This document shows, in pieces, positions 6,438 to 27,926 of a DNA stretch of 33,338 bases. The position numbers were made by a program, and so were the translations under genes. The notes below the pieces were generated by a model. The model did no database searches. It saw only the letters and a program-made list of their open reading frames with translations, and was not told the origin of the DNA. The DNA is taken from UHGV virus genome UHGV-0373465. One strand, 5' to 3'. How positions within the stretch are numbered: position 1 is the first letter of the stretch; every line of letters begins with the position of its first letter. Origin of the DNA: a virus.

Positions 6438-6643
6438 TGCACAGAATACCAGGCGAGATACCGCACCATAAAACTAAAAATATCAAGCTGATGGCTATTG
6501 TTCAGCGTTTACAGCGGATTATGGTCAACGAAAATCTGACGCCCGATGAGCTGGTCGGGTGTGCCGAAATAGTCCGGGATAATTACGGGCGGTTTAACCA
6601 TATCGGTCAGTCCAGAGTTGCGCCACCACAACGCAGACGATAG
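6425..6643 (+). CDS. Hypothetical small protein (start uncertain)
   Basis: 72-aa ORF overlapping the 3' end of the ASCH-like gene; no recognisable motif; alternative ATGs at 6437 and 6491. Confidence 0.25.
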   Translation: MAWIMHRIPGEIPHHKTKNIKLMAIVQRLQRIMVNENLTPDELVGCAEIVRDNYGRFNHIGQSRVAPPQRRR

Positions 6644-6830
6644 AGAACGCCGCCAGTCGTGAAACTTGTTTTCAGGGCTGGCGGGGTTGAATAACGAGTG
6701 TCGCGAGGCGTTAGTTTGAGCTTACAATTAAACCTATTGAAAATTAATGAGAAGTCAATTTTATCTTTTTCTCGTTAAAGATGGCCACAACTACTAAAAC
6801 GTGAGAATATCAAGACTTGGCAAAATCTAG

Positions 6831-6885
6831 CTTTTCCCAACGGGGTGTTTCGCTATAATACGCGGTCGGTTTTTAGGAGGGGTCA
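6831..6885 (+). promoter_or_regulatory. Putative sigma70 promoter and RBS for the methyltransferase gene
   Basis: Perfect TATAAT at 6854-6859 in an AT-rich spacer (6650-6885); weak -35 near 6831-6837; AGGAGG at 6875-6880 ahead of ATG 6886. Confidence 0.4.
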
Positions 6886-7824
6886 ATGCCAACTGTAGTT
6901 TCACTTTTTTCTGGATGTGGTGGTTCTGATGCGGGAGTTTTGAACGCAGGTTTCAATGTGCTTATGGCAAATGATATTTTGCCTTACGCAAGGGACGTTT
7001 ACTTAGAAAACCATCCTGAAACTGACTACATTTTGGGCGATATCTCAGGGCTCCAGTCGTTCCCTTCTGCTGAGTTGCTCATCGGATGCTATCCTTGCCA
7101 AGGATTTAGTCAAGGTGGGGCAAGGAAGGCAGATAGAAAGATTAATACACTATATTTAGAGTTTGCCCGTGCTTTGAGTAAAATTAAGCCAAAAGCATTC
7201 ATTGTAGAGAATGTCTCTGGTATGGTAAGGCGTAACTTTGAGCATTTATTAAAGGATCAATTCAAAGTTTTCGAAGAAGCAGGTTATACAGTAAGCTCGC
7301 AAATTCTGAATGCGTCCCATTATGGGGTATCCCAAGATAGGAAGCGAATCTTTATCGTAGGAATACGAAAGGACTACGGTATTACATACAAATTTCCAAA
7401 ACCAACACATGGTGATGGTTTGACACCATATTCCACAATTCGTGATGCTATTGGGCATATGCCTGTTTGGCCTGTTGGCGAGTTTTATGACGCCGATTTT
7501 CATTGGTATTATCTATCGCGAAACCGTAGGCAAGATTGGGATCAGATATCTAAAACAATTGTTGCAAATCCTAGACATATGCCTCTACATCCAATAAGTC
7601 CAACATTAGAAAAATTGGGACCTGATAAGTGGCAATTTACTTCGGATGCACCAGCTCGTAGGTTTAGCTATCGAGAGGCTGCTATTTTACAAGGTTTTGG
7701 GGATTTAATTTTCCCAGAAACTGAACGGGCTTCTATTAATATGAAATATACTGTGGTAGGTAATGCAGTACCGCCTCCATTGTTTGAGGCGGTTGCTAGA
7801 AACCTTCCAGATTTATGGGATTAA
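6886..7824 (+). CDS. DNA (cytosine-5)-methyltransferase, compact (312 aa)
   Basis: C5-MTase motifs in canonical order: FSGCGG (motif I, AdoMet binding), GCYPCQGFSQGG (motif IV, catalytic PCQ), FIVENVSGM (motif VI, ENV), QDRKRIFIVG (motif VIII), VVGNAVPPPL (motif X). AT-rich codon usage unlike the phage backbone. Confidence 0.85.
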   Translation: MPTVVSLFSGCGGSDAGVLNAGFNVLMANDILPYARDVYLENHPETDYILGDISGLQSFPSAELLIGCYPCQGFSQGGARKADRKINTLYLEFARALSKIKPKAFIVENVSGMVRRNFEHLLKDQFKVFEEAGYTVSSQILNASHYGVSQDRKRIFIVGIRKDYGITYKFPKPTHGDGLTPYSTIRDAIGHMPVWPVGEFYDADFHWYYLSRNRRQDWDQISKTIVANPRHMPLHPISPTLEKLGPDKWQFTSDAPARRFSYREAAILQGFGDLIFPETERASINMKYTVVGNAVPPPLFEAVARNLPDLWD

Positions 7825-8858
7825 GCAGCGATCGCGCTGGAAGGATCAAGGATGATATCTAGATAGCTAATATTTTGACTGTGATCAATATTATCAGATG
7901 CTCTGGTTAAATTGATTAATCTTAGGCGATCAACAAAAATAGCATCGCCTAACTTATTTTTATGCGCCCACTCACCATCTATCCATCGTAGATCTTGAGG
8001 TAAGAAATAATAAGTTGCCCATCGGTGAGCTACGGGGAATTTACTGTAGAGCATCGCAGGTGAGGCCTCAAGCTGCTTCGCTTCCCACTCTTCTTGAGAA
8101 CAGCCACACTGAACAAAAGAAATAGGGATGGCATCTCGTTGATCTCCCATTGGATGCCAGGCAATTATGTCAAGGCCTCCGTCACCACTATTTCCTCGAC
8201 TGAAATCTCGTTCTTTGAAGTTCGCTGTGCAACGGATATCGGAAGCAATACTCTTAAATTTATTATATAGAGTTCCAGTGTAAGGGGCCGCTTGACCACC
8301 AGAAGCCCAGCATGCTTTTATTATGCTACCGCTAGGCATTAGGCTTTCAAAAATAGGTAAACTAATTAGTTCAAAACTGCGCGTTATCTCTCTTCTGCTC
8401 ATTATGTTGACATATTTTATGTTAGCACAGATTAGTAAAGCTAAATATAGTCTTTCTAAATGTTCCAGTGGCTTTTCTGATATATCACGTAACTCTACAG
8501 TATCGTTGTCTTCTGATAAAGTAAAAGGGTAACTATCCCCAAATAAATCAATGCGTTGTCGTATGAAGCCTATCGCATAGCTCCACTTTCTGTCAGTATA
8601 TGCTCGACTAACACTTCGTTTTGTTCTCTTGCGTACAGGCGTATCATTTTCATCATCAACATCATAAACGCCCTCTTCTTCTGCTTCATCTGTTTCAGCT
8701 AGTACTGCTTCGGGTTGAGCTTGCAGTGTGCTATATAGGTCTCCTCGACTGAATGACCTGTCGATATTAGTTAAGGCCAATATCTCAATATAATCAGCCC
8801 ATAAATAAGGCTCATTAGAAGGCATTGAATCAAGATTTGTAATCATAATCTCAATCAT
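7821..8858 (-). CDS. Hypothetical protein, distal gene of minus-strand operon; candidate effector/nuclease (unproven)
   Basis: ORF 7821-8930; start likely at ATG 8858 or 8846, just after a GGGAGG and 3-8 nt from the upstream gene's stop. Its stop codon overlaps the MTase stop by 2 nt (convergent). Acidic stretch AETDEAEEEGVYDVDDENDT; no confidently recognised domain. Confidence 0.6.
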   Translation of the reverse strand: MIEIMITNLDSMPSNEPYLWADYIEILALTNIDRSFSRGDLYSTLQAQPEAVLAETDEAEEEGVYDVDDENDTPVRKRTKRSVSRAYTDRKWSYAIGFIRQRIDLFGDSYPFTLSEDNDTVELRDISEKPLEHLERLYLALLICANIKYVNIMSRREITRSFELISLPIFESLMPSGSIIKACWASGGQAAPYTGTLYNKFKSIASDIRCTANFKERDFSRGNSGDGGLDIIAWHPMGDQRDAIPISFVQCGCSQEEWEAKQLEASPAMLYSKFPVAHRWATYYFLPQDLRWIDGEWAHKNKLGDAIFVDRLRLINLTRASDNIDHSQNISYLDIILDPSSAIAA

Positions 8859-9924
8859 CCTCCCTTTTGCTTCTGATCTGATTTCTAATATTTTTTGACA
8901 TCTCAAAAATTTCAGATGCAGCCTCTTCATGCTCTAATGTTAATTCTTTAGCTTTAAGTAGCATATCCCAAACTACTCTTAATTTAACACTAGCTGCGTT
9001 TAGTGCTTTATCTAATGCTTCTCTTTCTCCGCTGGTATATAGATATGCTTCATCCAAGTTTGAACTTTTCATGAGAATTTCAATTGCTTCGGGTTTCTCA
9101 ACCACTGCTGCAATATCTTTTATTCTTCGAGACTCACCGATGATGGTTCTACCTTGTTGGTCAGGCACAAAAAACCAAGAGAATAAACGCTTAAGGTTTT
9201 CTTCATTTAAATTTGGGTCTAAAAAATCCTTTTTATCCTGTAGACCTAACCAGTTTGTGATTTTTGAATATCCCAAAGCTGTGGTTATATATGAAAATTC
9301 CACGTCAGAAGCCTTCATGGGTAAATTAAAAAACTCATGGTCATGCGCGACTTCATATAAGTTCAGTGCAGTGAGAAGTGTTGCAACATAATGTGGTTTA
9401 CTCCCAATCTCACGAGCCAGATTTTTTAATACTATCTCTTTAGGCTCATGTGAATAAAAAGTATCACATAACTCTTTAAGGTATTTGGCTTTAGATAATG
9501 AGTCCCATTCTTTGACCCCAGTTATATGACGATAACCGATATATCTCAGTACATCCTCTCGGTTTTCATAAATGATGCAGGGAAGCTTCTTAGGTTTATT
9601 GGTAGTATCATCAATGATTTCTTGCACACCTTTAAGTTTTCTTTTTGGAGGAAGCAGATCTCCATTGAGCAACTTTACAGCAGCTAAGCGTCTGTTTCCC
9701 TCAACCACGATGTAGTTTCCATTGCTTTTTACTGCCAATAAAGGTTCTCCAGGAAAGTAACCTTGCTGACCGATTGATAGCATTAGATCGTGGACACTTT
9801 CGTCATCTAACATTTCCTCAATGACTGTTGCAGCGTTACTGGCATCATTGAGACGAAAGAAACGTGGGTTTTTAGGGTCAAAATCAAGCTTATTTGTCTC
9901 AATTTCTACGATTTTGTTATCCAT
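8851..9924 (-). CDS. ParB/Srx-like N-terminal domain protein (DUF262/DndB-like superfamily candidate)
   Basis: ORF 8851-10056; start preferred at ATG 9924 (GAGG Shine-Dalgarno 5 nt upstream; alternatives 9981 and 10056). N-terminal region has the ParB-type signature YIVVEGNRRLAAVKLL about 75 residues in; the C-terminal two-thirds are helical and unassigned. Confidence 0.6.
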   Translation of the reverse strand: MDNKIVEIETNKLDFDPKNPRFFRLNDASNAATVIEEMLDDESVHDLMLSIGQQGYFPGEPLLAVKSNGNYIVVEGNRRLAAVKLLNGDLLPPKRKLKGVQEIIDDTTNKPKKLPCIIYENREDVLRYIGYRHITGVKEWDSLSKAKYLKELCDTFYSHEPKEIVLKNLAREIGSKPHYVATLLTALNLYEVAHDHEFFNLPMKASDVEFSYITTALGYSKITNWLGLQDKKDFLDPNLNEENLKRLFSWFFVPDQQGRTIIGESRRIKDIAAVVEKPEAIEILMKSSNLDEAYLYTSGEREALDKALNAASVKLRVVWDMLLKAKELTLEHEEAASEIFEMSKNIRNQIRSKREDD

Positions 9925-10151
9925 CTTAACCTCATGGGATGATGTAAATATCTTTTGGGGGATGCTTGATAAAACATCCATATTTGATCGTTTGCAGCGC
10001 ATTTGATACATCGAAGTGTACAAAAATGCTGGGCATAACTCTGCATTAAAATGCATTCACATTCAAAGAACTATTTTCTCGTTGGACATTTAGCCTAAGA
10101 GAGTTTGGACGGCTTTTGGAATTGCATCAAAACCGACCCATGAAGCGGGCG

Positions 10152-10170
10152 GGCGAGGCGGGGAAAGCAC
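10152..10170. other. cos: cos cohesive-end site (P2-type 19-nt GGCGAGGCGGGGAAAGCAC)
   Basis: Exact 19-mer that I recall as the P2 cohesive end, about 170 bp beyond the 3' end of portal gene Q, the expected position. Confidence 0.6.
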
Positions 10171-10308
10171 TGCGCGCTGGCGGTGGTGCTGATTTTATTT
10201 TTTCAGCGTCTGAGCGCGTCGTGATGGCGTTTAGTCGGCCTGCCGGGGCGTTGGTGTGTCTGCGGGGTGTTTTGTACAGTGGCGAACGTGTGAGGGCGTG
10301 ATGACGGG

Positions 10309-15309: not shown

Positions 15310-15939
15310 ATGACGAGTCCCGCACAGCGCCACATGATGCGGGTCTCGGCAGCGATGACCGCGCAGCGGGAAGCCGCCCCGCTGCGACATGCAACTGTCT
15401 ATGAGCAGATGCTGGAGCAGGGCAAAGGTGCACAGGATGACATTCTGATGACGGTCATGCTGTGGCGTCTGGATACCGGCGATATTGCCGGTGCGCTGGA
15501 GATTGCCCGTTATGCCCTGAAGTACGGTCTGACCATGCCGGGTAAACACCGCCGTACCCCGCCGTACATGTTCACCGAGGAGGTGGCGCTTGCGGCCATG
15601 CGCGCTCACGCTGCCGGTGAGTCTGTGGATACCCGCCTGCTGACGGAGACCCTTGAACTGACCGCCACGGCTGACATGCCTGATGAAGTGCGCGCAAAGC
15701 TGCACAAAATCACCGGTCTGTTTCTGCGTGACGGTGGTGATGCCGCCGGTGCGCTGGCTCACCTGCAACGTGCGACACAGCTCGACTGTCAGGCAGGCGT
15801 CAAAAAAGAGATTGAACGACTGGAGCGGGAGCTGAAACCGAAGCCGGAGCCGCAGCCCAAAGCGGCCACCCGCGCCCCGCGTAAGATCCGGAGCGTGACA
15901 CCGGCAAAACGTGGACGCCCGAAAAAGAAAGCCAGTTAA
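15310..15939 (+). CDS. M: Terminase small (endonuclease) subunit gpM
   Basis: 209 aa, starts 3 nt after the N stop; N-terminus MTSPAQRHMMRVSAAMTAQ matches my recollection of P2 gpM; C-terminal basic tail (KRGRPKKK). Confidence 0.75.
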   Translation: MTSPAQRHMMRVSAAMTAQREAAPLRHATVYEQMLEQGKGAQDDILMTVMLWRLDTGDIAGALEIARYALKYGLTMPGKHRRTPPYMFTEEVALAAMRAHAAGESVDTRLLTETLELTATADMPDEVRAKLHKITGLFLRDGGDAAGALAHLQRATQLDCQAGVKKEIERLERELKPKPEPQPKAATRAPRKIRSVTPAKRGRPKKKAS

Positions 15940-17036: not shown

Positions 17037-17533
17037 TGCCGGTAATTAACACGCATCAGAATATCGCCGCCTTTCTCGACATGCTGGCCGTGTCCGAAGG
17101 GACGGCGAATCATCCGCTGACGAAAAACCGGGGCTATGACGTGATAGTCACCGGACTGGACGGAAAGCCGGAAATTTTCACCGACTACAGTGACCACCCG
17201 TTCGCACATGGCCGACCGGCGAAGGTGTTTAACCGTCGCGGTGAAAAATCCACGGCCTCCGGTCGCTATCAGCAGCTTTACCTGTTCTGGCCGCACTACC
17301 GCAAACAGCTTGCCCTGCCGGATTTCAGTCCGTTGTCACAGGACAGACTTGCCATTCAGTTGATCCGCGAACGCGGTGCACTGGATGACATCCGGGCGGG
17401 ACGTATTGAGCGCGCCATTTCACGCTGTCGCAATATCTGGGCGTCCCTGCCGGGTGCCGGTTACGGTCAGCGTGAGCATTCACTGGAAAAACTGGTCACC
17501 GTCTGGCGTACCGCCGGCGGCGTACCGGCTTAA
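17036..17533 (+). CDS. K: Endolysin gpK
   Basis: 165 aa, equal to recalled P2 gpK; follows the holin; ATGA-type overlap with Y. Confidence 0.8.
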   Translation: MPVINTHQNIAAFLDMLAVSEGTANHPLTKNRGYDVIVTGLDGKPEIFTDYSDHPFAHGRPAKVFNRRGEKSTASGRYQQLYLFWPHYRKQLALPDFSPLSQDRLAIQLIRERGALDDIRAGRIERAISRCRNIWASLPGAGYGQREHSLEKLVTVWRTAGGVPA

Positions 17534-17547
17534 ACGGAGTAAACACC

Positions 17548-17973
17548 ATGAAGAAATTATCCCTTTCACTGATGCTGAACGTGTCGCTGGCGCTGATGCC
17601 GGCACTGTCCCTGATTTACCCGCAGAGCGTGGCCGTCAGTTTTGTCGCCGCCTGGGCGATTCTGGCGACGGTTATCTGTGTGGTTGCCGGTGGTGTCGGC
17701 GTGTATGCCACTGAGTATGTGCTGGAACGCTACGGGCGGGAGCTGCCGCCGGAATCGCTGGTCGTGAAGATTGTCACGTCGCTGTTTTTGCAGCCGGTGC
17801 CGTGGTGCAGACGGGCAGTGGCTCTGGTGGTGATGGTGGCGACATTTATCTCGCTGGTCGCCGCCGGATGGATTTTTACCGCGCTGATTTATCTCGTGGC
17901 GTCACTGTTTTTCCGGCTGATACGCACGGCCTGCCATCAGCGTTTTGAGGGGCGGGAACTATGTCAAAGCTGA
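17548..17973 (+). CDS. lysA: Lysis regulatory membrane protein LysA
   Basis: 141 aa with multiple transmembrane helices; position after K as in P2. Confidence 0.75.
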   Translation: MKKLSLSLMLNVSLALMPALSLIYPQSVAVSFVAAWAILATVICVVAGGVGVYATEYVLERYGRELPPESLVVKIVTSLFLQPVPWCRRAVALVVMVATFISLVAAGWIFTALIYLVASLFFRLIRTACHQRFEGRELCQS

Positions 17974-18961: not shown

Positions 18962-19406
18962 GTTTAAGCGTTTTGAAGACCGGCTGACCGGACTGATTGA
19001 GTCGCTGTCACCGTCAGGGCGTCGGCGGCTGAGTGCAGAGCTGGCGAAGCGTCTGCGGCAGAGTCAGCAGCGTCGGGTGATGGCACAGAAAGCCCCGGAC
19101 GGCACACCCTACGCGCCACGCCAGCAGCAGAGCGCCAGAAAAAAGACCGGTCGTGTTAAGCGAAAAATGTTTGCGAAACTTATCACCAGTCGTTTTTTGC
19201 ATATCCGCGCCAGCCCGGAACAGGCATCAATGGAATTTTACGGCGGGAAGTCGCCGAAAATCGCCAGTGTGCATCAGTTCGGTCTGTCGGAAGAAACCCG
19301 GAAAGACGGTAAGAAAATTGATTATCCGGCGCGTCCTCTGCTCGGCTTTACCGGTGAGGATGTGCAGATGATTGAAGAGATTATCCTGACTCACCTTGAG
19401 CGTTAG
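18954..19406 (+). CDS. S: Tail completion protein gpS
   Basis: 150 aa, equal to recalled P2 gpS; overlaps R by 8 nt. Confidence 0.8.
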   Translation: MNEFKRFEDRLTGLIESLSPSGRRRLSAELAKRLRQSQQRRVMAQKAPDGTPYAPRQQQSARKKTGRVKRKMFAKLITSRFLHIRASPEQASMEFYGGKSPKIASVHQFGLSEETRKDGKKIDYPARPLLGFTGEDVQMIEEIILTHLER

Positions 19407-19436
19407 TTTTATCCAGGCAGAGGCTGATGCGCAATT

Positions 19437-19471
19437 AAACATTGAGCGGCCATGCTGGTCGCTCAATGTTT
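19437..19471. terminator. Stem-loop between convergent S and the antisense moron gene (possible bidirectional terminator)
   Basis: Inverted repeat aaacattgagcg (19437-19448) / cgctcaatgttt (19460-19471) with an 11-nt loop; no strong T-run, so terminator function is tentative. Confidence 0.35.
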
Positions 19472-19477
19472 AGAGGT

Positions 19478-20263
19478 TTATGAGTGATTTTTATTTGATG
19501 CTTTGTATTCTAAAACCTTCTTATTGGCGTAAAAGAATTTTGTATATGACAGGAATATAACCAGACCTGAAGTGAAATAGACGAGGGATAGTATTAATAA
19601 TGCTTTTTTGTGACTGTTATTATCTTTAATCTCCTGGCTTAACCATTCGGAGTCCTCCTCGTTTAGCTGTAAGAGCTTATTGCAGGCGATCTCAGGAAGT
19701 GTGTCTTTTATAAATACGTTTTGCAGTCTCTTGCAATCGGCAAGGCTATAAGTTTTATTAAATTCAACTGCTTTATTTTTGAAGGATAAAAGAACTTTGT
19801 CACTATAAACATAGTACATCATGTTTTTATATGGTATGCCTATGGCATCCCTTACTATAACGGATTGTTCGTTGTGTATATAACATGCGAAGAGAATATA
19901 AATAATGCTGGACAGAATTACAATTATTGTTTTAATTATGTGTGGTGGTTTTGTTATGTCACCCCAGAAGCGAGTAAGAAAAAAATACGATGTTTTTAGT
20001 TTTCCATCAATCAGCCCCTGCTGTATCATTCTCACATCTTCGATGCCTGATACATTGATTCCGTTAATTATTTTAAATAGTTGAATGTCGCGCCATTTTT
20101 TGTCGAGCATTTTTAACTTTCTGTCTGAATACTCAAAATTGAAATAATGTGCAATAAACCTCATAAGATTACTTTTACCAAAGGTAATAAATGTTAATGC
20201 TATTAATAAAAATAGATACAAAGAGATAAACCACCACGCATTAGTCACATTATCACTGAACAT
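19478..20263 (-). CDS. Hypothetical three-TM membrane protein (moron at the P2 orf30 position)
   Basis: 261 aa, very AT-rich, antisense to the flanking late genes; predicted transmembrane helices at the N-terminus (WWFISLYLFLLIALTFITF), middle (IIKTIIVILSSIIYILFACYI) and C-terminus (ALLILSLVYFTSGLVIFL). Confidence 0.65.
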   Translation of the reverse strand: MFSDNVTNAWWFISLYLFLLIALTFITFGKSNLMRFIAHYFNFEYSDRKLKMLDKKWRDIQLFKIINGINVSGIEDVRMIQQGLIDGKLKTSYFFLTRFWGDITKPPHIIKTIIVILSSIIYILFACYIHNEQSVIVRDAIGIPYKNMMYYVYSDKVLLSFKNKAVEFNKTYSLADCKRLQNVFIKDTLPEIACNKLLQLNEEDSEWLSQEIKDNNSHKKALLILSLVYFTSGLVIFLSYTKFFYANKKVLEYKASNKNHS

Positions 20264-20346
20264 TACGCTCTCCTCGAATGTTGTATGGTCGTTCTACAAA
20301 TGAATCCAGATAGCATAACTTTTATATATTGTGCAATCTCACACGC

Positions 20347-20982
20347 ATGAACACTCTCGCAAATATTCAGGAACTCGCGCGCGCACTGCGCAACATGATT
20401 CGTACCGGCCTTGTCGTCGAAACCAACCTTAAAGCCGGTCGCTGCCGTGTGCAGACCGGTGGCATGTGCACTGACTGGCTTCAGTGGCTGACCCATCGTG
20501 CCGGACGTTCGCGCACATGGTGGGCACCTTCCGTGGGGGAACAGGTGCTGATTCTGGCTGTGGGCGGTGAACTCGACACGGCGTTCGTTCTGCCGGGGAT
20601 TTATTCCGGCGATAACCCCGCGCCGTCTGCGTCGGCGGATGCCCTGCATATCCGTTTCCCTGACGGGGCGGTGATTGAGTATGAACCCGAAACCAGTGCA
20701 CTCACGGCAAGCGGAATTAAAACGGCCAGCGTGACGGCTTCTGATTCTGTTACTGCCACGGTGCCGGTGGTCATGGTGAAAGCATCAACCCGCGTCACCC
20801 TGGACACCCCGGAGGTGGTCTGCACCAACAGGCTGATTACCGGCACGCTGGAAGTGCAGAAGGGCGGGACGATGCGCGGCAACATTGAACACACCGGCGG
20901 TGAACTCTCATCAAACGGTAAGGTACTGCATACCCATAAACACCCCGGCGACAGCGGCGGCACAACCGGGAGCCCTCTATGA
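20347..20982 (+). CDS. V: Baseplate spike/assembly protein gpV
   Basis: ORF 20329-20982; ATG 20347 gives 211 aa, equal to recalled P2 gpV. Confidence 0.8.
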   Translation: MNTLANIQELARALRNMIRTGLVVETNLKAGRCRVQTGGMCTDWLQWLTHRAGRSRTWWAPSVGEQVLILAVGGELDTAFVLPGIYSGDNPAPSASADALHIRFPDGAVIEYEPETSALTASGIKTASVTASDSVTATVPVVMVKASTRVTLDTPEVVCTNRLITGTLEVQKGGTMRGNIEHTGGELSSNGKVLHTHKHPGDSGGTTGSPL

Positions 20983-22772: not shown

Positions 22773-24770
22773 ATGAGCACAAAATTCAGAACCGTTATCA
22801 CCACTGCCGGTGCAGCAAAGCTGGCAGCGGCAACCGCACCGGGAGGGCGGAAGGTCAACATTACCACGATGGCCGTCGGGGATGGCGGTGGTAAATTGCC
22901 TGTCCCGGATGCCGGACAGACCGGGCTTATCCACGAAGTCTGGCGACATGCGCTGAACAAAATCAGCCAGGACAAACGAAACAGTAATTATATTATCGCA
23001 GAGCTGGTTATTCCGCCGGAGGTGGGCGGTTTCTGGATGCGTGAGCTTGGCCTGTACGATGATGCGGGAACGTTAATTGCTGTGGCGAACATGGCCGAAA
23101 GTTATAAGCCAGCTCTTGCCGAAGGCTCAGGGCGTTCGCAGACCTGCCGTATGGTCATCATCGTCAGCAGTGTGACCTCAGTGGCGCTGACCATTGACAC
23201 CACAACGGTGATGGCGACGCAGGATTACGTTGATGACAAAATTGCAGAACATGAACAGTCACGACGTCACCCGGACGCCTCGCTGACCGCAAAAGGTTTT
23301 ACTCAGTTAAGCAGTGCGACCAACAGCACGTCTGAAACACTGGCTGCAACGCCAAAGGCGGTAAAGGCCGCCTATGACCTTGCTAACGGGAAATATACCG
23401 CACAGGACGCCACCACAGCACGAAAAGGCCTTGTCCAGCTCAGTAGTGCCACCAACAGCACGTCTGAAACGCTCGCTGCAACACCAAAAGCGGTAAAAGC
23501 AGCATATGACCTTGCTAACGGGAAATATACCGCACAGGACGCCACCACAGCGCGAAAAGGCCTTGTTCAGCTCAGTAGCGCCACCAACAGCGATTCTGAA
23601 ACGCTGGCCGCAACGCCAAAGGCGGTAAAGGTCGCGTATGACCTTGCTAACGGGAAATACACTGCACAGGATGCCACCACAGCGCGAAAAGGGCTTGTTC
23701 AGCTCAGTAGCGCCACCAACAGTGATTCTGAAACACTGGCCGCAACACCAAAAGCGGTGAAGTCTGCCTATGACAATGCTGAAAAACGTCTTCAGAAAGA
23801 TCAGAACGGTGCGGATATTCCTGATAAAAGATTATTCCTGCGCAATATTGGAGCAACAAATTCAACAACCATGTCTTTTAGTGGTGGTACAGGATGGTTC
23901 AGGCTGGCAACTGTAACCATGCCCCAGGCCAGTTCCGTGGTTTACATAAGCCTGATTGGTGGTGCCGGATATAATGTTAACTCCCCTATGCAGGCTGGTA
24001 TATCTGAACTTGTTCTTCGTGCGGGAAATGGAAATCCAAAAGGTCTTACTGGTGCGTTATGGCGACGGACATCGGTTGGATTTACTAATTTTGCATGGGT
24101 GAATACATCCGGTGATACCTATGATGTTTATGTTGAAATAGGTAATTACGCCACAGGTGTTAATATTCAGTGGGATTATACCAGTAATGCCAGCGTAACG
24201 ATTCATACATCACCAACTTATACAGCGAATAAACCAACAGGCCTGACAGATGGAACTGTATATGTAATTTACAGTTCGCACATTAAACCGACTGCTGCTG
24301 ATGTTGGGGCGTTATCATTATCTGGAGGTCAATTGAATGGTGCACTGGGCATCGGTACATCCAGTGCTCTTGGCGGTAACTCGATTGTTTTGGGTGATAA
24401 TGACACAGGCTTTAAACAAAATGGCGACGGTAATCTGGATGTTTATGCTAATAACGTTCATGTTATGCGCTTTGTCTCCGGTAGCATTCAAAGTAATAAA
24501 ACCATAAATATTACGGGGCGTGTTAATCCCACAGATTACGGTAACTTTGACTCCCGCTATGTCCAGGATATCCGGCTTGGTGGTGCCGCCACATACAAAC
24601 CTGCGAACAATGGCATGACATGGACACATCAGGTACCGTCAGGGTGTGTATATACCGGCATTATTGTTCAGGATACCGGCTCAAACTCTGCCGATAACAT
24701 TGGTGGCGTATATTACAGACCGGTGCAGAAATACATTAACGGGACATGGTATAACGTGGCGCAGGTATAA
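22773..24770 (+). CDS. H: Tail fibre protein gpH
   Basis: 665 aa; conserved N-terminus, four tandem 44-aa tail-fibre repeats, then an AT-rich C-terminal receptor-binding region. Confidence 0.85.
   Translation: MSTKFRTVITTAGAAKLAAATAPGGRKVNITTMAVGDGGGKLPVPDAGQTGLIHEVWRHALNKISQDKRNSNYIIAELVIPPEVGGFWMRELGLYDDAGTLIAVANMAESYKPALAEGSGRSQTCRMVIIVSSVTSVALTIDTTTVMATQDYVDDKIAEHEQSRRHPDASLTAKGFTQLSSATNSTSETLAATPKAVKAAYDLANGKYTAQDATTARKGLVQLSSATNSTSETLAATPKAVKAAYDLANGKYTAQDATTARKGLVQLSSATNSDSETLAATPKAVKVAYDLANGKYTAQDATTARKGLVQLSSATNSDSETLAATPKAVKSAYDNAEKRLQKDQNGADIPDKRLFLRNIGATNSTTMSFSGGTGWFRLATVTMPQASSVVYISLIGGAGYNVNSPMQAGISELVLRAGNGNPKGLTGALWRRTSVGFTNFAWVNTSGDTYDVYVEIGNYATGVNIQWDYTSNASVTIHTSPTYTANKPTGLTDGTVYVIYSSHIKPTAADVGALSLSGGQLNGALGIGTSSALGGNSIVLGDNDTGFKQNGDGNLDVYANNVHVMRFVSGSIQSNKTINITGRVNPTDYGNFDSRYVQDIRLGGAATYKPANNGMTWTHQVPSGCVYTGIIVQDTGSNSADNIGGVYYRPVQKYINGTWYNVAQV
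23293..23784 (+). repeat. Tandem repeat, about 4 x 132 bp, inside tail-fibre gene H (phage tail-fibre repeat)
   Basis: Near-identical 132-bp units starting near 23427, 23559 and 23691, with a diverged first unit from about 23293; each encodes GLVQLSSATNS(T/D)SETLAATPKAVK(A/V/S)AYDLANGKYTAQDATTARK. Confidence 0.8.
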
Positions 24771-24773
24771 TTT

Positions 24774-25301
24774 ATGCAGCATTTGATAAATATAACGGCA
24801 GGTAATCCAAAAACGGTTGAACAATATCAATTGACAAAGGACTTTGATGTTGTCTGGTTTTTTACAGAAGATGGTAAGAACTGGTACGAAGAACAAAAGT
24901 ATTTTGCTGATGACACGATAAAAATAGCGTACGACAAAGATAATATTATCCGCTATGTAGAAAAGGATGTGACAGCTATCAGACCGGATGGATTAAGTGT
25001 TGTTGAAGTGCCGGATATTACTGCTAACCGACGGGCGGACATTTCAGGGAACTGGATGTTTAAGGACGGCAAAGTGATTAAACGCATTTATACGGCAGAG
25101 GAATTACAACAGCAGGCAGAAATTCGGAAAGCCAGACTTCTTGCAGATGCTGAATCCGTGATTTTGCCGCTGGAGCGCGCTGTCAGGCTGAATATGGCAA
25201 CAGATGAGGAGCGCAGCCGACTGGAAGCATGGGAACGCTACAGCGTTCTGGTCAGTCGTGTGGATCCTGCAAATCCTGAATGGCCGGAAATGCCGCAATA
25301 A
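24774..25301 (+). CDS. G: Tail fibre assembly chaperone gpG
   Basis: 175 aa, equal to recalled P2 gpG; directly downstream of H; AT-rich like the H C-terminus. Confidence 0.8.
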
Positions 25302-25516
25302 GTTGTATGAGCTCTAGTGTGGGCTTACATATCTATGGCACAGAGTAAAGCCTAATCTGACAGTCCACTCTGTGCCAGAGGTGGGCATTGCTGATGTCAT
25401 AAAATATTATGCCAGCAGCCGTCTTAGGGGAGTGTTTACATTTCAATGATCGGGTATGATCTCGGCATGTTAATGGTTTATTACTAAATGCTTGCGCCTA
25501 TCTTTATGGAGGAGTA

Positions 25517-26416
25517 ATGAGTGGTATTCGTATAACTCAGGCTATTGATAACAATCAGATTTTAGTAAATGTAAATACTTTTAATTATAGTGTTAATCCC
25601 TATCCACTCAAATGTCCTGACCCAAATTGCTCTGCTCATTTGGTGTATGTCAAAAGCCATATTCGTCGGAGTTTTAATAAAACCTTGCATATCCCCGCCT
25701 TCTTTAGACTGGAAAAAAATTTCACGCATGACAAATTATGCCAGTATGGAACTTCAGGATTGAATACAATTTATGCAAGTGATTCCAGTCATGATATCAG
25801 CCGTGCGCTTGCCACAGGTAATAATATATTCCGTATACATATACTCGATGAAGATGATATCTCTAAATTAAGCAGAAAAGCTGCAGCTATGCAGGCAAAT
25901 CCACCTTCTGATACTACAGACCGCGTTTATGTCAAGAGAGGTCGGAAAGCCCCTTATGTGAAGAACATGGATAGCTTACGGGAGATCTATGAATATGGAA
26001 AAGCTCACCCCAACAAGAGAAACAGCATAAAAATTGTTACTGGAACAAGTACTGTAACGTGGTCTGATTTTTTCTATGAAACAACGCAGTTAGAACGATT
26101 GTCAACTTACCTCCAGAAAGTAAAAATAGCTCAGGTTGCTGTAATTATGAAAGTGCATGTGGCGAGAATCCCTATGGCGAAATTTAATTATCGACACTTC
26201 ATTGAAGGTTCGCCAATGAGGATAAAAGGGGGCTTTAATATATATCCTACGATTCAATTAGGAAATGTTACTCCAAAATTATTTCCGTTGAGTAGCATTG
26301 TCATGGTACTCGGTAAATTTACTATTCCAACAAATAGAAAAATGATAATGGATCCAATATTTGAGCGTGAAGTCAGAACCATAGTTTCTAGTGAAGAGCA
26401 AGTGCTAATTCTTTGA
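25517..26416 (+). CDS. Hypothetical protein at the P2 Z/fun slot (possible Z/fun-like superinfection-exclusion gene)
   Basis: 299 aa, strongly AT-rich, own RBS (GGAGGAG before ATG 25517), flanked by about 215 bp and 320 bp non-coding spacers between G and FI; no recognisable catalytic motif. Confidence 0.6.
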   Translation: MSGIRITQAIDNNQILVNVNTFNYSVNPYPLKCPDPNCSAHLVYVKSHIRRSFNKTLHIPAFFRLEKNFTHDKLCQYGTSGLNTIYASDSSHDISRALATGNNIFRIHILDEDDISKLSRKAAAMQANPPSDTTDRVYVKRGRKAPYVKNMDSLREIYEYGKAHPNKRNSIKIVTGTSTVTWSDFFYETTQLERLSTYLQKVKIAQVAVIMKVHVARIPMAKFNYRHFIEGSPMRIKGGFNIYPTIQLGNVTPKLFPLSSIVMVLGKFTIPTNRKMIMDPIFEREVRTIVSSEEQVLIL

Positions 26417-26735
26417 AATCAAGAGGATTTGGCTCGGATGATTATGTGCGGCTTATAACCATAACGTAATGAGCGGATTTTTCTACTGCTTTTTATCATT
26501 TTGGTTAACTAAAACTAACCTCTGCTCCTCGCTCAAAGCAGACTGTCAGATTTGATAGCGTTTTGGCTATGTAAATTGTCAGTCGGAAAATGAGTGAGTA
26601 CAAATCAGGACAGGCGGGCGAATTGCCTGCCTTTTCTTTATCTGTTGTTTCATCCACTGACCAGCCAGGTCAAATAGCGTCTCATGCACTGCCCAACAGA
26701 AAATAGTTGCACCCATTAACCACGGAGTTAAACGG

Positions 26736-27926
26736 ATGAGTGACTATCATCACGGCGTGCAGGTGCTGGAGATTAACGACGGCACCCGCGTCATTTCCAC
26801 CGTATCCACCGCCATTGTTGGCATGGTCTGCACGGCCAGCGATGCGGATGCGGAAATCTTCCCCCTCAATAAACCAGTGCTGATTACCAATGTGCAGAGC
26901 GCAATTGCAAAGGCCGGTAAAAAAGGCACGCTGGCGGCATCGTTGCAGGCCATCGCCGACCAGTCAAAACCGGTCACCGTTGTCGTGCGTGTGGAAGACG
27001 GCACCGGCGACGACGAGGAAACGAAACTTGCGCAGACCGTTTCCAATATCATCGGCACCACCGACGAAAACGGTCAGTACACCGGACTGAAAGCCCTGCT
27101 GGCGGCGGAGTCGGTAACCGGTGTTAAACCGCGTATTCTCGGCGTGCCGGGGCTGGATACCAAAGAGGTGGCTGTTGCACTGGCATCAGTCTGTCAGAAG
27201 CTGCGCGCTTTCGGATATATCAGCGCATGGGGCTGTAAAACCATTTCCGAGGTGAAAGCCTATCGCCAGAATTTCAGCCAGCGTGAGCTGATGGTCATCT
27301 GGCCGGATTTCCTCGCATGGGATACGGTCACCAGCACCACCGCCACCGCGTATGCCACCGCCCGTGCGCTGGGTCTGCGTGCCAGAATCGACCAGGAGCA
27401 GGGCTGGCATAAAACGCTGTCCAATGTCGGGGTGAACGGTGTTACCGGCATCAGCGCATCTGTATTCTGGGATTTGCAGGAGTCCGGCACCGATGCTGAC
27501 CTGCTTAACGAGTCAGGCGTCACTACGCTGATTCGCCGCGACGGTTTCCGATTCTGGGGTAACCGTACCTGCTCTGATGACCCGCTGTTCCTCTTTGAAA
27601 ACTACACCCGCACCGCGCAGGTGCTGGCCGACACGATGGCTGAGGCGCACATGTGGGCGGTGGACAAGCCCATCACCGCAACGCTGATTCGCGACATCGT
27701 TGACGGCATCAATGCCAAATTCCGTGAGCTGAAAACAAACGGCTATATCGTGGATGCGACCTGCTGGTTCAGCGAAGAATCCAACGATGCGGAAACCCTT
27801 AAGGCCGGAAAACTGTATATCGACTACGACTATACCCCGGTGCCTCCTCTTGAAAACCTGACCCTGCGCCAGCGTATTACCGATAAATACCTGGCAAATC
27901 TGGTCACCTCGGTTAACAGCAATTAA
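26736..27926 (+). CDS. FI: Contractile tail sheath protein gpFI
   Basis: 396 aa, equal to recalled P2 gpFI; followed by the tube gene. Confidence 0.85.
   Translation: MSDYHHGVQVLEINDGTRVISTVSTAIVGMVCTASDADAEIFPLNKPVLITNVQSAIAKAGKKGTLAASLQAIADQSKPVTVVVRVEDGTGDDEETKLAQTVSNIIGTTDENGQYTGLKALLAAESVTGVKPRILGVPGLDTKEVAVALASVCQKLRAFGYISAWGCKTISEVKAYRQNFSQRELMVIWPDFLAWDTVTSTTATAYATARALGLRARIDQEQGWHKTLSNVGVNGVTGISASVFWDLQESGTDADLLNESGVTTLIRRDGFRFWGNRTCSDDPLFLFENYTRTAQVLADTMAEAHMWAVDKPITATLIRDIVDGINAKFRELKTNGYIVDATCWFSEESNDAETLKAGKLYIDYDYTPVPPLENLTLRQRITDKYLANLVTSVNSN

What the first reader, a model, noticed from the sequence alone, without database searches (positions are those of the whole stretch)
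25302..26735. AT-rich single-gene insert at the P2 Z/fun slot between G and FI
Seen in sequence: a 299-aa ORF (25517-26416) with its own RBS, strongly AT-rich, separated from the flanking late genes by about 215 bp and 320 bp of non-coding DNA containing inverted repeats (for example ggcacagagt at 25337-25346 and actctgtgcc at 25367-25376). Established knowledge: the G-FI junction of P2 carries Z/fun, a lysogenic-conversion gene that blocks phage T5, and is a second defence hotspot in P2-like phages. Inference: this ORF is either a Z/fun homologue or a different single-protein defence or exclusion factor.
Basis: partly seen in the sequence, partly recalled or inferred. Interest (0 to 1): 0.6.

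Follow-up and report, generated by a model that had tools for sequence, protein, structure and literature searches.

The report
Unknown zinc/OB-fold gene in P2 defence slot
A P2-like phage carries, in the slot where phage P2 keeps its anti-T5 gene fun(Z), an unrelated and uncharacterised gene for a basic zinc-binding, OB-fold protein that travels alone between defence islands of many bacteria, which makes it a good but untested candidate for a new anti-phage gene.

Summary
A 299-aa ORF (25517-26416, +) lies in an AT-rich insert between the P2 G and FI homologues. It is not a Fun(Z) homologue (BLASTP E=3.6). It is the orthologue of phage Wphi orf44/gp44 (99.7% identical; PHROG 7195; RefSeq WP_000014361.1), named 'hypothetical' by every source that names it. 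The true insert is 25378-26516. Other cargoes in this slot include Shedu SduA, PD-T7-1 and Fun(Z). The gene is under purifying selection (dN/dS 0.07-0.22). It has no Pfam, NCBIfam, PADLOC or PDB sequence relative, but it belongs to a family of about 150 clusters reaching Bacillus. The only invariant residues are C33, C38, H71 and C75. An AlphaFold model (pLDDT 92) matches only OB-fold nucleic-acid binders, and no acidic residue is conserved. Orthologues sit alone beside retrons I-B and I-C, JukA with type I HsdR, PDC-S15 and colicin genes. Best reading: a solitary, non-enzymatic nucleic-acid-binding defence or exclusion factor. The defence role is inferred from context and the mechanism is speculative; neither has been tested.

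The parts
24774..25301 (+). Left flanking late gene: tail-fibre assembly protein, the P2 G homologue (context only, not part of the insert).
   Evidence: Pfam Caudo_TAP 3.7e-34; PHROG 136; 78-83% nt identity to P2 G.
25274..25377 (.). Conserved left border of the Z-region slot.
   Evidence: Corresponds to the 'left inverted repeat' annotated in GenBank AJ512683 and AJ512677. Inverted repeats I1 and I3. The left homology break falls at 25374-25399 in all eight other-cargo variants. Hairpin -21.6 kcal/mol, z -2.5, with no U-tract.
25378..26516 (+). The exchanged cassette (1139 bp, AT-rich). It replaces the 2079-bp fun(Z) cassette of P2.
   Evidence: blastn breakpoints against P2, EC58, EC31, P24C9, 12474III, D8, YpM46 and YpM22; GC 0.35-0.40.
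25382..25410 (+). Candidate sigma-70 promoter for the ORF (TGGGCA-17-TATTAT). It is a weak match and is unverified.
   Evidence: Consensus scan, 9 of 12 matches. The region holds 9 promoter-like sites against 4.8 +/- 2.4 in shuffles, so this is only a lead.
25508..25514 (+). Shine-Dalgarno sequence GGAGGAG ahead of the ATG at 25517.
   Evidence: Read directly from the sequence. About 15-20 bp upstream of the ATG is the only non-coding DNA shared with orthologues in other genera.
25517..26416 (+). ORF of 299 aa, pI 9.8. It is the orthologue of Wphi orf44/gp44 (PHROG 7195, WP_000014361.1), a CCHC zinc plus OB-fold protein of unknown function.
   Evidence: dN/dS 0.07-0.22. AlphaFold pLDDT 92.1, pTM 0.77. 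Fold matches to OB-fold proteins.
25613..25741 (+). Segment encoding the predicted zinc site: C33 (25613-25615), C38 (25628-25630), H71 (25727-25729) and C75 (25739-25741), giving the pattern CX4C...HX3C.
   Evidence: These are the only four invariant columns among 118 family members with 20% mean identity. The motif is present in 115 of 117 full-length relatives. Codons were read.
26126..26410 (+). C-terminal beta-rich region (residues about 204-298; strands 204-217, 227-231, 241-248, 261-269, 283-290). This is the most likely location of the OB-fold barrel.
26520..26610 (.). Conserved right border of the slot. It contains the inverted copy of the core, GACTGTCAGATT, at 26541-26552.
   Evidence: Corresponds to the 'right inverted repeat' of AJ512683 and AJ512677. 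I1 arm 26528-26552. The right homology break falls at 26515-26525 in seven of the eight other-cargo variants.
26607..26642 (+). Conserved intrinsic-terminator-like hairpin followed by a T-run. It lies in the shared right flank and could terminate transcripts from + strand cargo or read-through from the upstream late operon.
   Evidence: Terminator scan, 9-bp stem with 6 GC pairs. -17.9 kcal/mol, z -3.9. Conserved in P2 (alignment).
26641..26670 (+). Region homologous to the P2 activator (Ogr) binding site of the late promoter pF, upstream of FI.
   Evidence: Alignment with the annotated P2 site 17555-17583.
26736..27926 (+). Right flanking late gene: tail sheath protein, the P2 FI homologue (context only).
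   Evidence: Pfam Phage_sheath_1, Phage_sheath_1C and Gp18_domIII_N; 90-95% nt identity to P2 FI.

Best explanation
The ORF is a solitary cargo gene sitting in the fixed-boundary 'Z-region' cassette slot of P2-like phages. It encodes a basic cytoplasmic protein of 299 aa with an N-terminal CCHC zinc-binding module and at least one OB-fold. It has no recognisable catalytic site. The most likely function is an anti-phage defence or superinfection-exclusion factor that benefits the lysogen. The most likely mode of action is stoichiometric binding of a nucleic acid, such as single-stranded DNA of a replicating or incoming phage or a tRNA-like RNA. That would block the competitor's replication or gene expression rather than cleave anything. 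SHOWN HERE: the slot, its borders and its turnover; that the gene is real, conserved and mobile on its own; the CCHC signature; the OB-fold similarity; the lack of any conserved acidic residue; the defence-system neighbours. INFERRED: that it defends against phages (from context), that it binds nucleic acid (from fold, charge and conserved Arg and aromatic residues), that it acts without catalysis, and that it is expressed in the lysogen.
For: Slot. Homology to P2 breaks at 25377 and 26517, exactly where fun(Z) is replaced. Nine cargo variants share these borders and most keep the inverted 12-nt core. Other cargoes in the slot include Shedu SduA (9e-163), PD-T7-1 (1.5e-156), an SMEK_N protein, a NUDIX/PDC-S07 protein and P2 Fun(Z), annotated as blocking T5. 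Vassallo 2022 calls the locus a second P2 defence hotspot.

Gene. dN/dS is 0.07-0.22. The gene stays at 33-41% GC in hosts of different composition. Only the ORF and its RBS are shared between contexts.

Neighbours of orthologues and relatives. Retron I-B RT and ATPase-Toprim in Morganella; JukA plus type I HsdR and an integrase in Serratia; retron I-C RT-Toprim; PDC-S15 (FRG) in Leclercia; colicin/pyocin DNase with immunity genes in Proteus; AbiH, GIY-YIG and AAA proteins on a Vibrio plasmid; an OloB fragment.

Background. Six of eight randomly chosen unknown hotspot loci of P4 satellites gave phage protection when tested (PMC13586616).
Confidence: 0.5

Rival explanations
1. Counter-defence or establishment factor. 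The protein would bind the element's own single-stranded or newly entered DNA, or a host defence nucleic acid such as retron msDNA. It would protect the phage or mobile element from host immunity and would be made late or early in infection rather than in the lysogen.
For: It is on the same strand as the late operons, with no terminator between G and the ORF. It has an OB-fold and zinc architecture typical of ssDNA binders. Two distant relatives lie immediately downstream of a relaxase on a conjugative element. Several orthologues sit beside retrons.
Against: The family is nearly absent from plasmids: 6 of 72,556 records, 5 of them non-mobilizable. This is unlike leading-region anti-defence genes. 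Orthologues lie in chromosomal integrase-bearing islands next to RM, Juk and retron systems, where defence genes cluster. All identifiable cargo of this P2 slot is defensive.
Confidence: 0.17
2. A sensor or adaptor that needs a partner, or a cryptic enzyme. The OB and zinc part would recognise a phage nucleic acid, and the unmatched central region (residues about 84-200) would either carry an unrecognised catalytic or toxic activity or recruit a host effector, giving abortive infection.
For: Only about a third to a half of the protein is explained by the OB-fold matches. Conserved polar residues S90, R106, Y147, T/S150 and Q295 could form an active or ligand-binding site. Many single-gene defences combine a sensor with an effector.
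Confidence: 0.15
3. A lysogenic-conversion or regulatory DNA-binding protein unrelated to phage conflict (for example a transcription factor or nucleoid protein), or a selfish passenger that gives the host no benefit.
For: It is a basic zinc-binding protein. Some contexts lack defence genes. The NAR 2026 survey reports a machine-learning antiviral signal in only 15% (32% with genomic context) of unknown P2 proteins.
Against: It is a consistent neighbour of known defence systems across five genera. It occupies a slot whose identifiable cargo is defensive. Purifying selection is strong. There is no helix-turn-helix or other transcription-factor signature, and no nuclease motif that would suggest a homing element.
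Confidence: 0.12
4. A diverged homologue of P2 Fun(Z).
For: Same slot between G and FI.
Against: BLASTP best E is 3.6 with no alignment longer than 33 residues. The lengths are 299 vs 528 aa and the strands are opposite. The exhaustive profile search found about 150 relatives, nearly all of about 300 aa.
Confidence: 0.01

Closest known systems
Escherichia phage Wphi orf44 / gp44 (NP_878219.1; PHROG 7195; RefSeq WP_000014361.1)
   Same: 99.7% identical protein in the same slot between G and FI, with the same strand and the same spacing. The protein is 100% identical in 'Peduovirus P2' NC_070904, and a 99.7% identical copy is in Yersinia phage HQ103.
   Different: Nothing of substance differs; this is the same gene. 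It is annotated only as gp44 or 'hypothetical protein', and no function has been reported in any held source.
P2 Fun(Z) (NP_046777.1)
   Same: Occupies the same cassette slot with the same borders. It is a single-gene, non-essential lysogenic-conversion cargo.
   Different: No sequence similarity (E = 3.6), 528 vs 299 aa, opposite strand. Its T5-exclusion phenotype cannot be carried over.
Other cargo of the same slot: Shedu SduA (P2-EC31), PD-T7-1 (Yersinia phage vB_YpM_46), SMEK-domain protein (vB_EcoM-12474III)
   Same: Single genes, AT-rich, swapped at identical breakpoints between the conserved inverted-repeat borders.
   Different: These are unrelated protein families. This ORF matches none of their profiles.
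OB-fold plus zinc nucleic-acid binders (MCM10 internal domain, MCM and MCM8/9 N-terminal domains, BRCA2 OB folds, RPA, HIN domains of AIM2 and p204, AspRS and AsnRS anticodon-binding domains)
   Different: No sequence homology. Only 80-143 residues align, TM is about 0.2-0.28, and identity is 5-18%. The order of the zinc ligands (CX4C...HX3C, N-terminal to the barrel) differs. These are replication, repair or innate-sensor proteins, not mobile bacterial cargo.
P2 Tin (blocks T-even phages; from my own knowledge it is reported to act through the T4 ssDNA-binding protein gp32)
   Same: A non-enzymatic single-protein exclusion factor of a P2-like prophage. It is a possible functional analogue if this protein interferes with phage ssDNA metabolism.
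   Different: No sequence similarity (E = 16). It lies in a different hotspot (old/tin). The analogy is conceptual only.

Membership tests
P2 Fun(Z) | Detectable sequence homology to P2 Fun(Z) (NP_046777.1) | tested here: not met
   BLASTP best E = 3.6; the longest aligned stretch is 33 residues.
P2 Fun(Z) | Location in the cassette slot between G and FI | tested here: met
   Breakpoints at P2 15349 and 17429 bracket fun(Z) exactly.
P2 Fun(Z) | Transcribed leftward, opposite to the late genes | tested here: not met
   fun(Z) is on the minus strand in P2; this ORF is on the plus strand.
P2 Fun(Z) | Blocks growth of phage T5 and confers FUdR sensitivity | not testable with these tools
   This is a phenotype and needs a plating assay.
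Any known or candidate defence family in PADLOC-DB v2.0.0 (includes the PD-T4, PD-T7 and PD-Lambda systems and the PDC candidates) | Profile match of the protein or its relatives | tested here: not met
   No family at E up to 10 for the ORF. Among 118 relatives there are only single-member chance hits with E of at least 3e-4. Positive controls from the same slot scored 1e-156 to 1e-163.
P2 Z-region cassette (Stockholm collection; GenBank AJ512677 and AJ512683) | Cargo bounded by the conserved left and right inverted-repeat regions between G and FI | tested here: met
   The borders map to 25274-25377 and 26520-26610. The inverted 12-nt core is present on both sides.
OB-fold nucleic-acid-binding superfamily | Five-stranded closed beta-barrel fold | tested here: met
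OB-fold nucleic-acid-binding superfamily | Binds ssDNA or RNA | not testable with these tools
   Suggested by pI 9.8 and the conserved Arg and aromatic residues. It needs EMSA or a similar assay.
Zinc ribbon / CCHC metal site | Four invariant Cys/His ligands with knuckle-like spacing | tested here: met
   C33, C38, H71 and C75 are the only invariant columns of 118 sequences. The motif is present in 115 of 117 relatives. Metal occupancy cannot be tested here.
Metal-dependent nucleases (PD-(D/E)xK, HNH, GIY-YIG, Toprim) | Conserved catalytic acidic or His residues and the corresponding fold or profile | tested here: not met
   No Pfam or NCBIfam hit. No acidic column exceeds 76% conservation, and two of the top three are K and N in this protein. 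No nuclease fold appears among the listed structural matches.
Tandem-OB (HIN-like or BRCA2-like) internal duplication | Detectable similarity between the N- and C-terminal halves | tested here: inconclusive

The most novel reading that the evidence does not exclude
The ORF is the enterobacterial representative of a previously unrecognised family, spanning at least two phyla, of solitary CCHC-zinc/OB-fold proteins. On this reading the family is a new class of anti-phage immunity that works without any enzyme, by directly binding an invader's single-stranded DNA or a tRNA-like RNA. It would be spread as a bare ORF between prophage hotspots, integrative islands and conjugative elements.
Probability: 0.25. 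Interest if true: 0.75.

Novelty: new member of a known kind. Interest (0 to 1): 0.47.

Why it matters
P2-like prophages occur in about a third of complete E. coli genomes (1775 of 5426 match this junction), and their two or three cargo slots hold much of the species' mobile immunity. About 6% of those junctions (115 genomes) carry this gene, and current defence annotation cannot see it. If it is defensive, it adds a family with no enzymatic domain and an eukaryote-like OB-plus-zinc nucleic-acid-sensing architecture. It also comes with roughly 150 diverse relatives for comparative work and a clear set of residues to mutate. If it is not defensive, that would be a useful exception to the assumption that everything in these hotspots is a defence gene. 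Either way, the work here turns a twenty-year-old 'hypothetical protein' into a set of specific experiments.

Tried and rejected
1. Fun(Z) homology: rejected.
2. Tin homology: rejected.
3. Pfam, NCBIfam and PADLOC on the ORF and on 118 relatives: nothing beyond chance.
4. PDB sequence search with the single protein and with the family profile: nothing.
5. The first AlphaFold run, on the shallow 12-sequence alignment, was unusable (pLDDT 51). It was replaced by the run on the 118-sequence alignment.
6. AFDB50 fold search: the library is not installed.
The narrow one gave 12 pattern hits, none confirmed.
8. The word-index search with the broad alignment returned only 3 new members.
9. Internal duplication of N- and C-terminal parts: not detected.
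10. Rfam scan of the non-coding flanks: only a sub-threshold chance hit.
11. A conserved downstream element, suggested because the next gene starts 410-411 bp after the stop in three contexts: rejected, since no DNA similarity exists outside the ORF except between L014 and L015.
12. Literature: searches for Wphi orf44, WP_000014361, NP_878219 and phrog_7195 found nothing. DefensePredictor's text and supplements do not list the accession. Rousset 2022 covers only the gpA-gpQ hotspot. DARNA (PD-T7-3) is an unrelated HEPN protein. Nilsson 2004 and Odegrip 2006 are not held.
Full report
1. THE OBSERVATION

A GGAGGAG Shine-Dalgarno lies at 25508-25514. There are 215 nt of non-coding DNA after the stop codon of the upstream gene and 319 nt before the next start. 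The ORF is 37% GC, against 55-60% in the neighbouring late genes. The upstream gene (24774-25301) is a Caudo_TAP tail-fibre assembly protein. The downstream gene (26736-27926) is a tail sheath protein. These are the homologues of P2 G and FI. The quoted decamers at 25337-25346 and 25367-25376 are the centre of a 14-nt inverted repeat, which folds at -21.6 kcal/mol, z = -2.5. The ORF is a real gene: against five orthologues from other genera, dN/dS is 0.07-0.22.

2. THE LOCUS: A FIXED-BOUNDARY CASSETTE SLOT

blastn against P2 shows that homology stops at window 25377 (P2 15349) and resumes at 26517 (P2 17429). A 1139-bp cassette therefore replaces the 2079-bp P2 segment that holds fun(Z) and its terminator.

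A 25-nt inverted repeat brackets the cassette at exactly these points. Its arms are 25354-25378 and 26528-26552, with a perfect 12-nt core AATCTGACAGTC / GACTGTCAGATT. This feature is already known. GenBank records AJ512683 (P2-EC58 'proviral Z-region') and AJ512677 (P2-EC31) annotate a 'left inverted repeat' and a 'right inverted repeat', which map to window 25274-25377 and 26520-26610.

I compared nine cargo variants: this window/Wphi, P2, EC58, EC31, P24C9, vB_EcoM-12474III, D8, vB_YpM_46 and vB_YpM_22. The eight with other cargo break homology at 25374-25399 on the left, and seven of the eight break at 15-25 (26515-26525) on the right. Most variants keep the inverted core on both sides. 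Cargo occurs in either orientation.

The shared right flank also carries a conserved terminator-like hairpin (26612-26632 plus a T-run; -17.9 kcal/mol, z -3.9). After it comes the homologue of the P2 Ogr-binding site of promoter pF.

3. IDENTITY OF THE GENE

The ORF is not related to Fun(Z): BLASTP best E is 3.6, the lengths are 299 vs 528 aa, and the strands are opposite. It is not related to P2 Tin either.

It is the orthologue of Wphi orf44/gp44 at 99.7% identity. The protein is 100% identical in 'Peduovirus P2' NC_070904, and a 99.7% identical copy is in Yersinia phage HQ103. It matches PHROG 7195 ('unknown function') over its full length. Its RefSeq accession is WP_000014361.1. Every source that names it calls it 'hypothetical'.

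It is present in 117 of 5426 complete E. coli genomes. All copies are chromosomal and at least 99% identical, and 115 of them include both P2 flanks. A total of 1775 genomes match the junction flanks. No held paper mentions the accessions, and the DefensePredictor supplements do not list it.

4. WHAT THE SLOT USUALLY CARRIES

I scanned the cargo of the other variants:
- EC31 carries Shedu SduA (9e-163).
- vB_YpM_46 carries PD-T7-1 (1.5e-156).
- vB_EcoM-12474III carries an SMEK_N protein.
- P24C9 carries a NUDIX protein (PDC-S07, 7e-10) plus a HAD phosphatase.
- EC58 gives a weak hit to a DRT-associated protein.
- P2 Fun(Z), D8 and YpM22 have no hits. Fun(Z) is annotated as blocking T5.

Vassallo et al. 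2022 (PMC9519451) describe this locus as a second defence-enriched P2 hotspot holding three of their systems. The slot is thus a genuine defence hotspot, and the prior for any cargo there is high.

5. THE PROTEIN FAMILY

The word-index search found only 12 clusters, all at least 65% identical and all from Enterobacterales. The exhaustive profile search found 152 representatives at the 50%-identity level with E of 1e-3 or better (47 with E of 1e-10 or better). Nearly all are 295-330 aa. They include Bacillus toyonensis, B. mycoides and B. paranthracis, Vibrio and Pseudoalteromonas.

In a 118-sequence alignment with 20% mean identity, the only invariant columns are C33, C38, H71 and C75 (CX4C...HX3C). 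R106, Y147, W182, F185 and Q295 are at least 90% conserved. K/R at positions 50 and 64 is about 90% conserved. No acidic column exceeds 76%, and two of the three best are K and N in this protein. The protein has a pI of 9.76.

None of the 118 members hits a Pfam or PADLOC family beyond single-member chance matches. The family profile finds nothing among PDB sequences.

6. STRUCTURE

AlphaFold on the shallow alignment failed (pLDDT 51). On the 118-sequence alignment it gave pLDDT 92.1 and pTM 0.77.

All three fold searches return only OB-fold nucleic-acid binders:
- Foldseek against PDB and BFVD agrees.

No enzyme fold appears. The matches cover only 80-143 of 299 residues, with TM of about 0.2-0.28. 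At least half of the protein therefore has no structural analogue. From the secondary structure, the five long C-terminal strands (residues about 204-298) are the likeliest barrel. A profile-profile test for an N/C duplication was negative.

7. GENOMIC BEHAVIOUR

Orthologues at 65-74% identity are not confined to P2-like phages:
- Serratia fonticola: downstream of type I HsdR and JukA (8e-52), on an island with an integrase.
- Morganella: next to a type I-B retron (RT 3e-91, ATPase-Toprim 2e-225) with an integrase and Exc.
- A metagenomic Enterobacterales contig: near smpB, with phage and satellite remnants and a type I-C RT-Toprim retron (1e-198).
- Leclercia: in an AlpA island with a PDC-S15/FRG protein.
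- Proteus: beside colicin/pyocin DNase and immunity genes.

More distant members:
- Two sit directly after a 1224-aa relaxase on a conjugative element, with different cargo beyond the gene.
- One lies in a Bacillus patch with a split methylase, PDDEXK_2 genes and a transposase.
- One lies among bacteriocin genes.
- One, on a Vibrio megaplasmid, is a split copy next to AbiH, GIY-YIG, AAA and P-loop genes.
- One follows an OloB fragment.

Between these contexts, DNA similarity is limited to the ORF and about 15-20 bp upstream. There is no conserved partner gene. The gene stays at 33-41% GC in every host.

8. INTERPRETATION

The best-supported reading is a solitary defence or exclusion cargo gene. 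Its product would be a non-enzymatic, zinc-stabilised OB-fold nucleic-acid binder.
- The defence role is inferred from two independent lines of context: the slot and the neighbours of the orthologues. I give it about 0.6.
- The nucleic-acid binding is inferred from fold, charge and conserved Arg and aromatic residues.
- The idea that it acts stoichiometrically on phage ssDNA or a tRNA-like RNA is a hypothesis, at about 0.3.

Expression is unresolved. The gene shares the strand of the late operons. No canonical terminator separates it from G. Its own promoter is only a 9/12 consensus match at 25382-25410. A recent preprint (10.64898/2026.09.05.749240) shows that AT-rich cargo of a P2-like prophage remnant is bound and silenced by H-NS, which may apply here too.

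The rivals are an anti-defence or ssDNA-protecting factor, a sensor with a cryptic effector or a host partner, and a function unrelated to phage conflict. The near absence of the family from plasmids (6 of 72,556) argues against a conjugative leading-region role.

9. NOVELTY AND VERDICT

The gene, the slot and the inverted-repeat borders are all already in public records. New here are:
- the exclusion of Fun(Z) homology;
- the precise limits of the insert;
- the recognition of a wide CCHC/OB-fold family that moves on its own;
- its consistent association with defence systems.

It is a new, untested member of a known kind: hotspot-borne single-gene defence candidates. Interest is moderate. Unknown genes in P2 and P4 hotspots are common and often turn out to be defensive (PMC13586616). 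An effector-less OB/zinc architecture would be unusual if it were confirmed.

Noticed in passing
window 6600-10200: The classical P2 hotspot position (where P2 has old and tin) is a second AT-rich island (GC 0.36-0.44). It carries a C-5 cytosine DNA methylase (6886-7824 +; Pfam DNA_methylase 1e-61; PADLOC DruM2/MTase_II 1e-110), a 369-aa ORF with no hits (7821-8930 -), and a 401-aa ORF (8851-10056 -) whose N-terminal part matches PD-Lambda-5_A and PDC-M38A at about 1e-24. This may be an RM-like or PD-Lambda-5-like system.
   Followed up: partly
window 19200-20400: A third AT-rich island (GC 0.34-0.41) inside the late region holds a 261-aa ORF on the minus strand (19478-20263) with no Pfam or PADLOC match. 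It may be another cargo slot; from memory it corresponds to the P2 orf30 position, which I did not verify.
   Followed up: partly
window 22773-24770 (about 23280-23800): The tail-fibre gene H contains four tandem copies of a 44-aa (132-bp) Phage_fiber_2 repeat. These produce repeated spurious 40-aa ORFs in another frame at 23374, 23506 and 23638. The C-terminal half of H and gene G drop to 42-45% GC, which suggests that a receptor-binding module has been exchanged.
   Followed up: no
window 26607-26642, and P2 about 17520-17550: The terminator-like hairpin just upstream of the pF/Ogr site is conserved between this phage and P2. P2's annotation instead places the V-operon terminator inside its own fun(Z) cassette (15639-15666). 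The slot therefore seems to supply a built-in terminator for whatever + strand cargo is inserted.
   Followed up: partly
L014:5509-7292 and L015:5501-7284: The Leclercia island and a metagenomic Enterobacterales contig share a block of about 1.8 kb (77% identity) that includes the ORF with about 500 bp upstream and about 390 bp downstream. All other pairs share only the ORF. Larger versions of the cassette therefore also circulate.
   Followed up: partly
L030:7001-7900 (Vibrio tubiashii plasmid pFP31): The family member here is annotated as two short CDS (126 and 113 aa), and tblastn aligns it in two pieces. It is probably a frameshifted, decaying copy. It lies within an AbiH / GIY-YIG / AAA / P-loop NTPase patch.
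   Followed up: no
L025:3201-7930 and L029:3200-7930: Two 89%-identical distant family members lie 126 bp downstream of a 1224-aa relaxase-like gene on the same strand. The genes beyond them are unrelated in the two elements. The family member thus marks the boundary between backbone and cargo on a conjugative or mobilizable element.
   Followed up: no
L006:3740-5663 (Serratia fonticola): A JukA homologue (8e-52) is followed by a 370-aa ORF with no PADLOC hit. The pair lies between a type I HsdR gene and the orthologue of the ORF. The 370-aa gene may be a divergent JukB.
   Followed up: no
Genome-contig scan (no window coordinates): the search for related loci with the close-family alignment reported 12 pattern matches in GTDB genomes, but none was confirmed by tblastn. 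Yet the same proteins are encoded in NCBI assemblies of Serratia, Morganella, Proteus and Leclercia. The cause is unexplained; it may be masking or the choice of species representatives.
   Followed up: no
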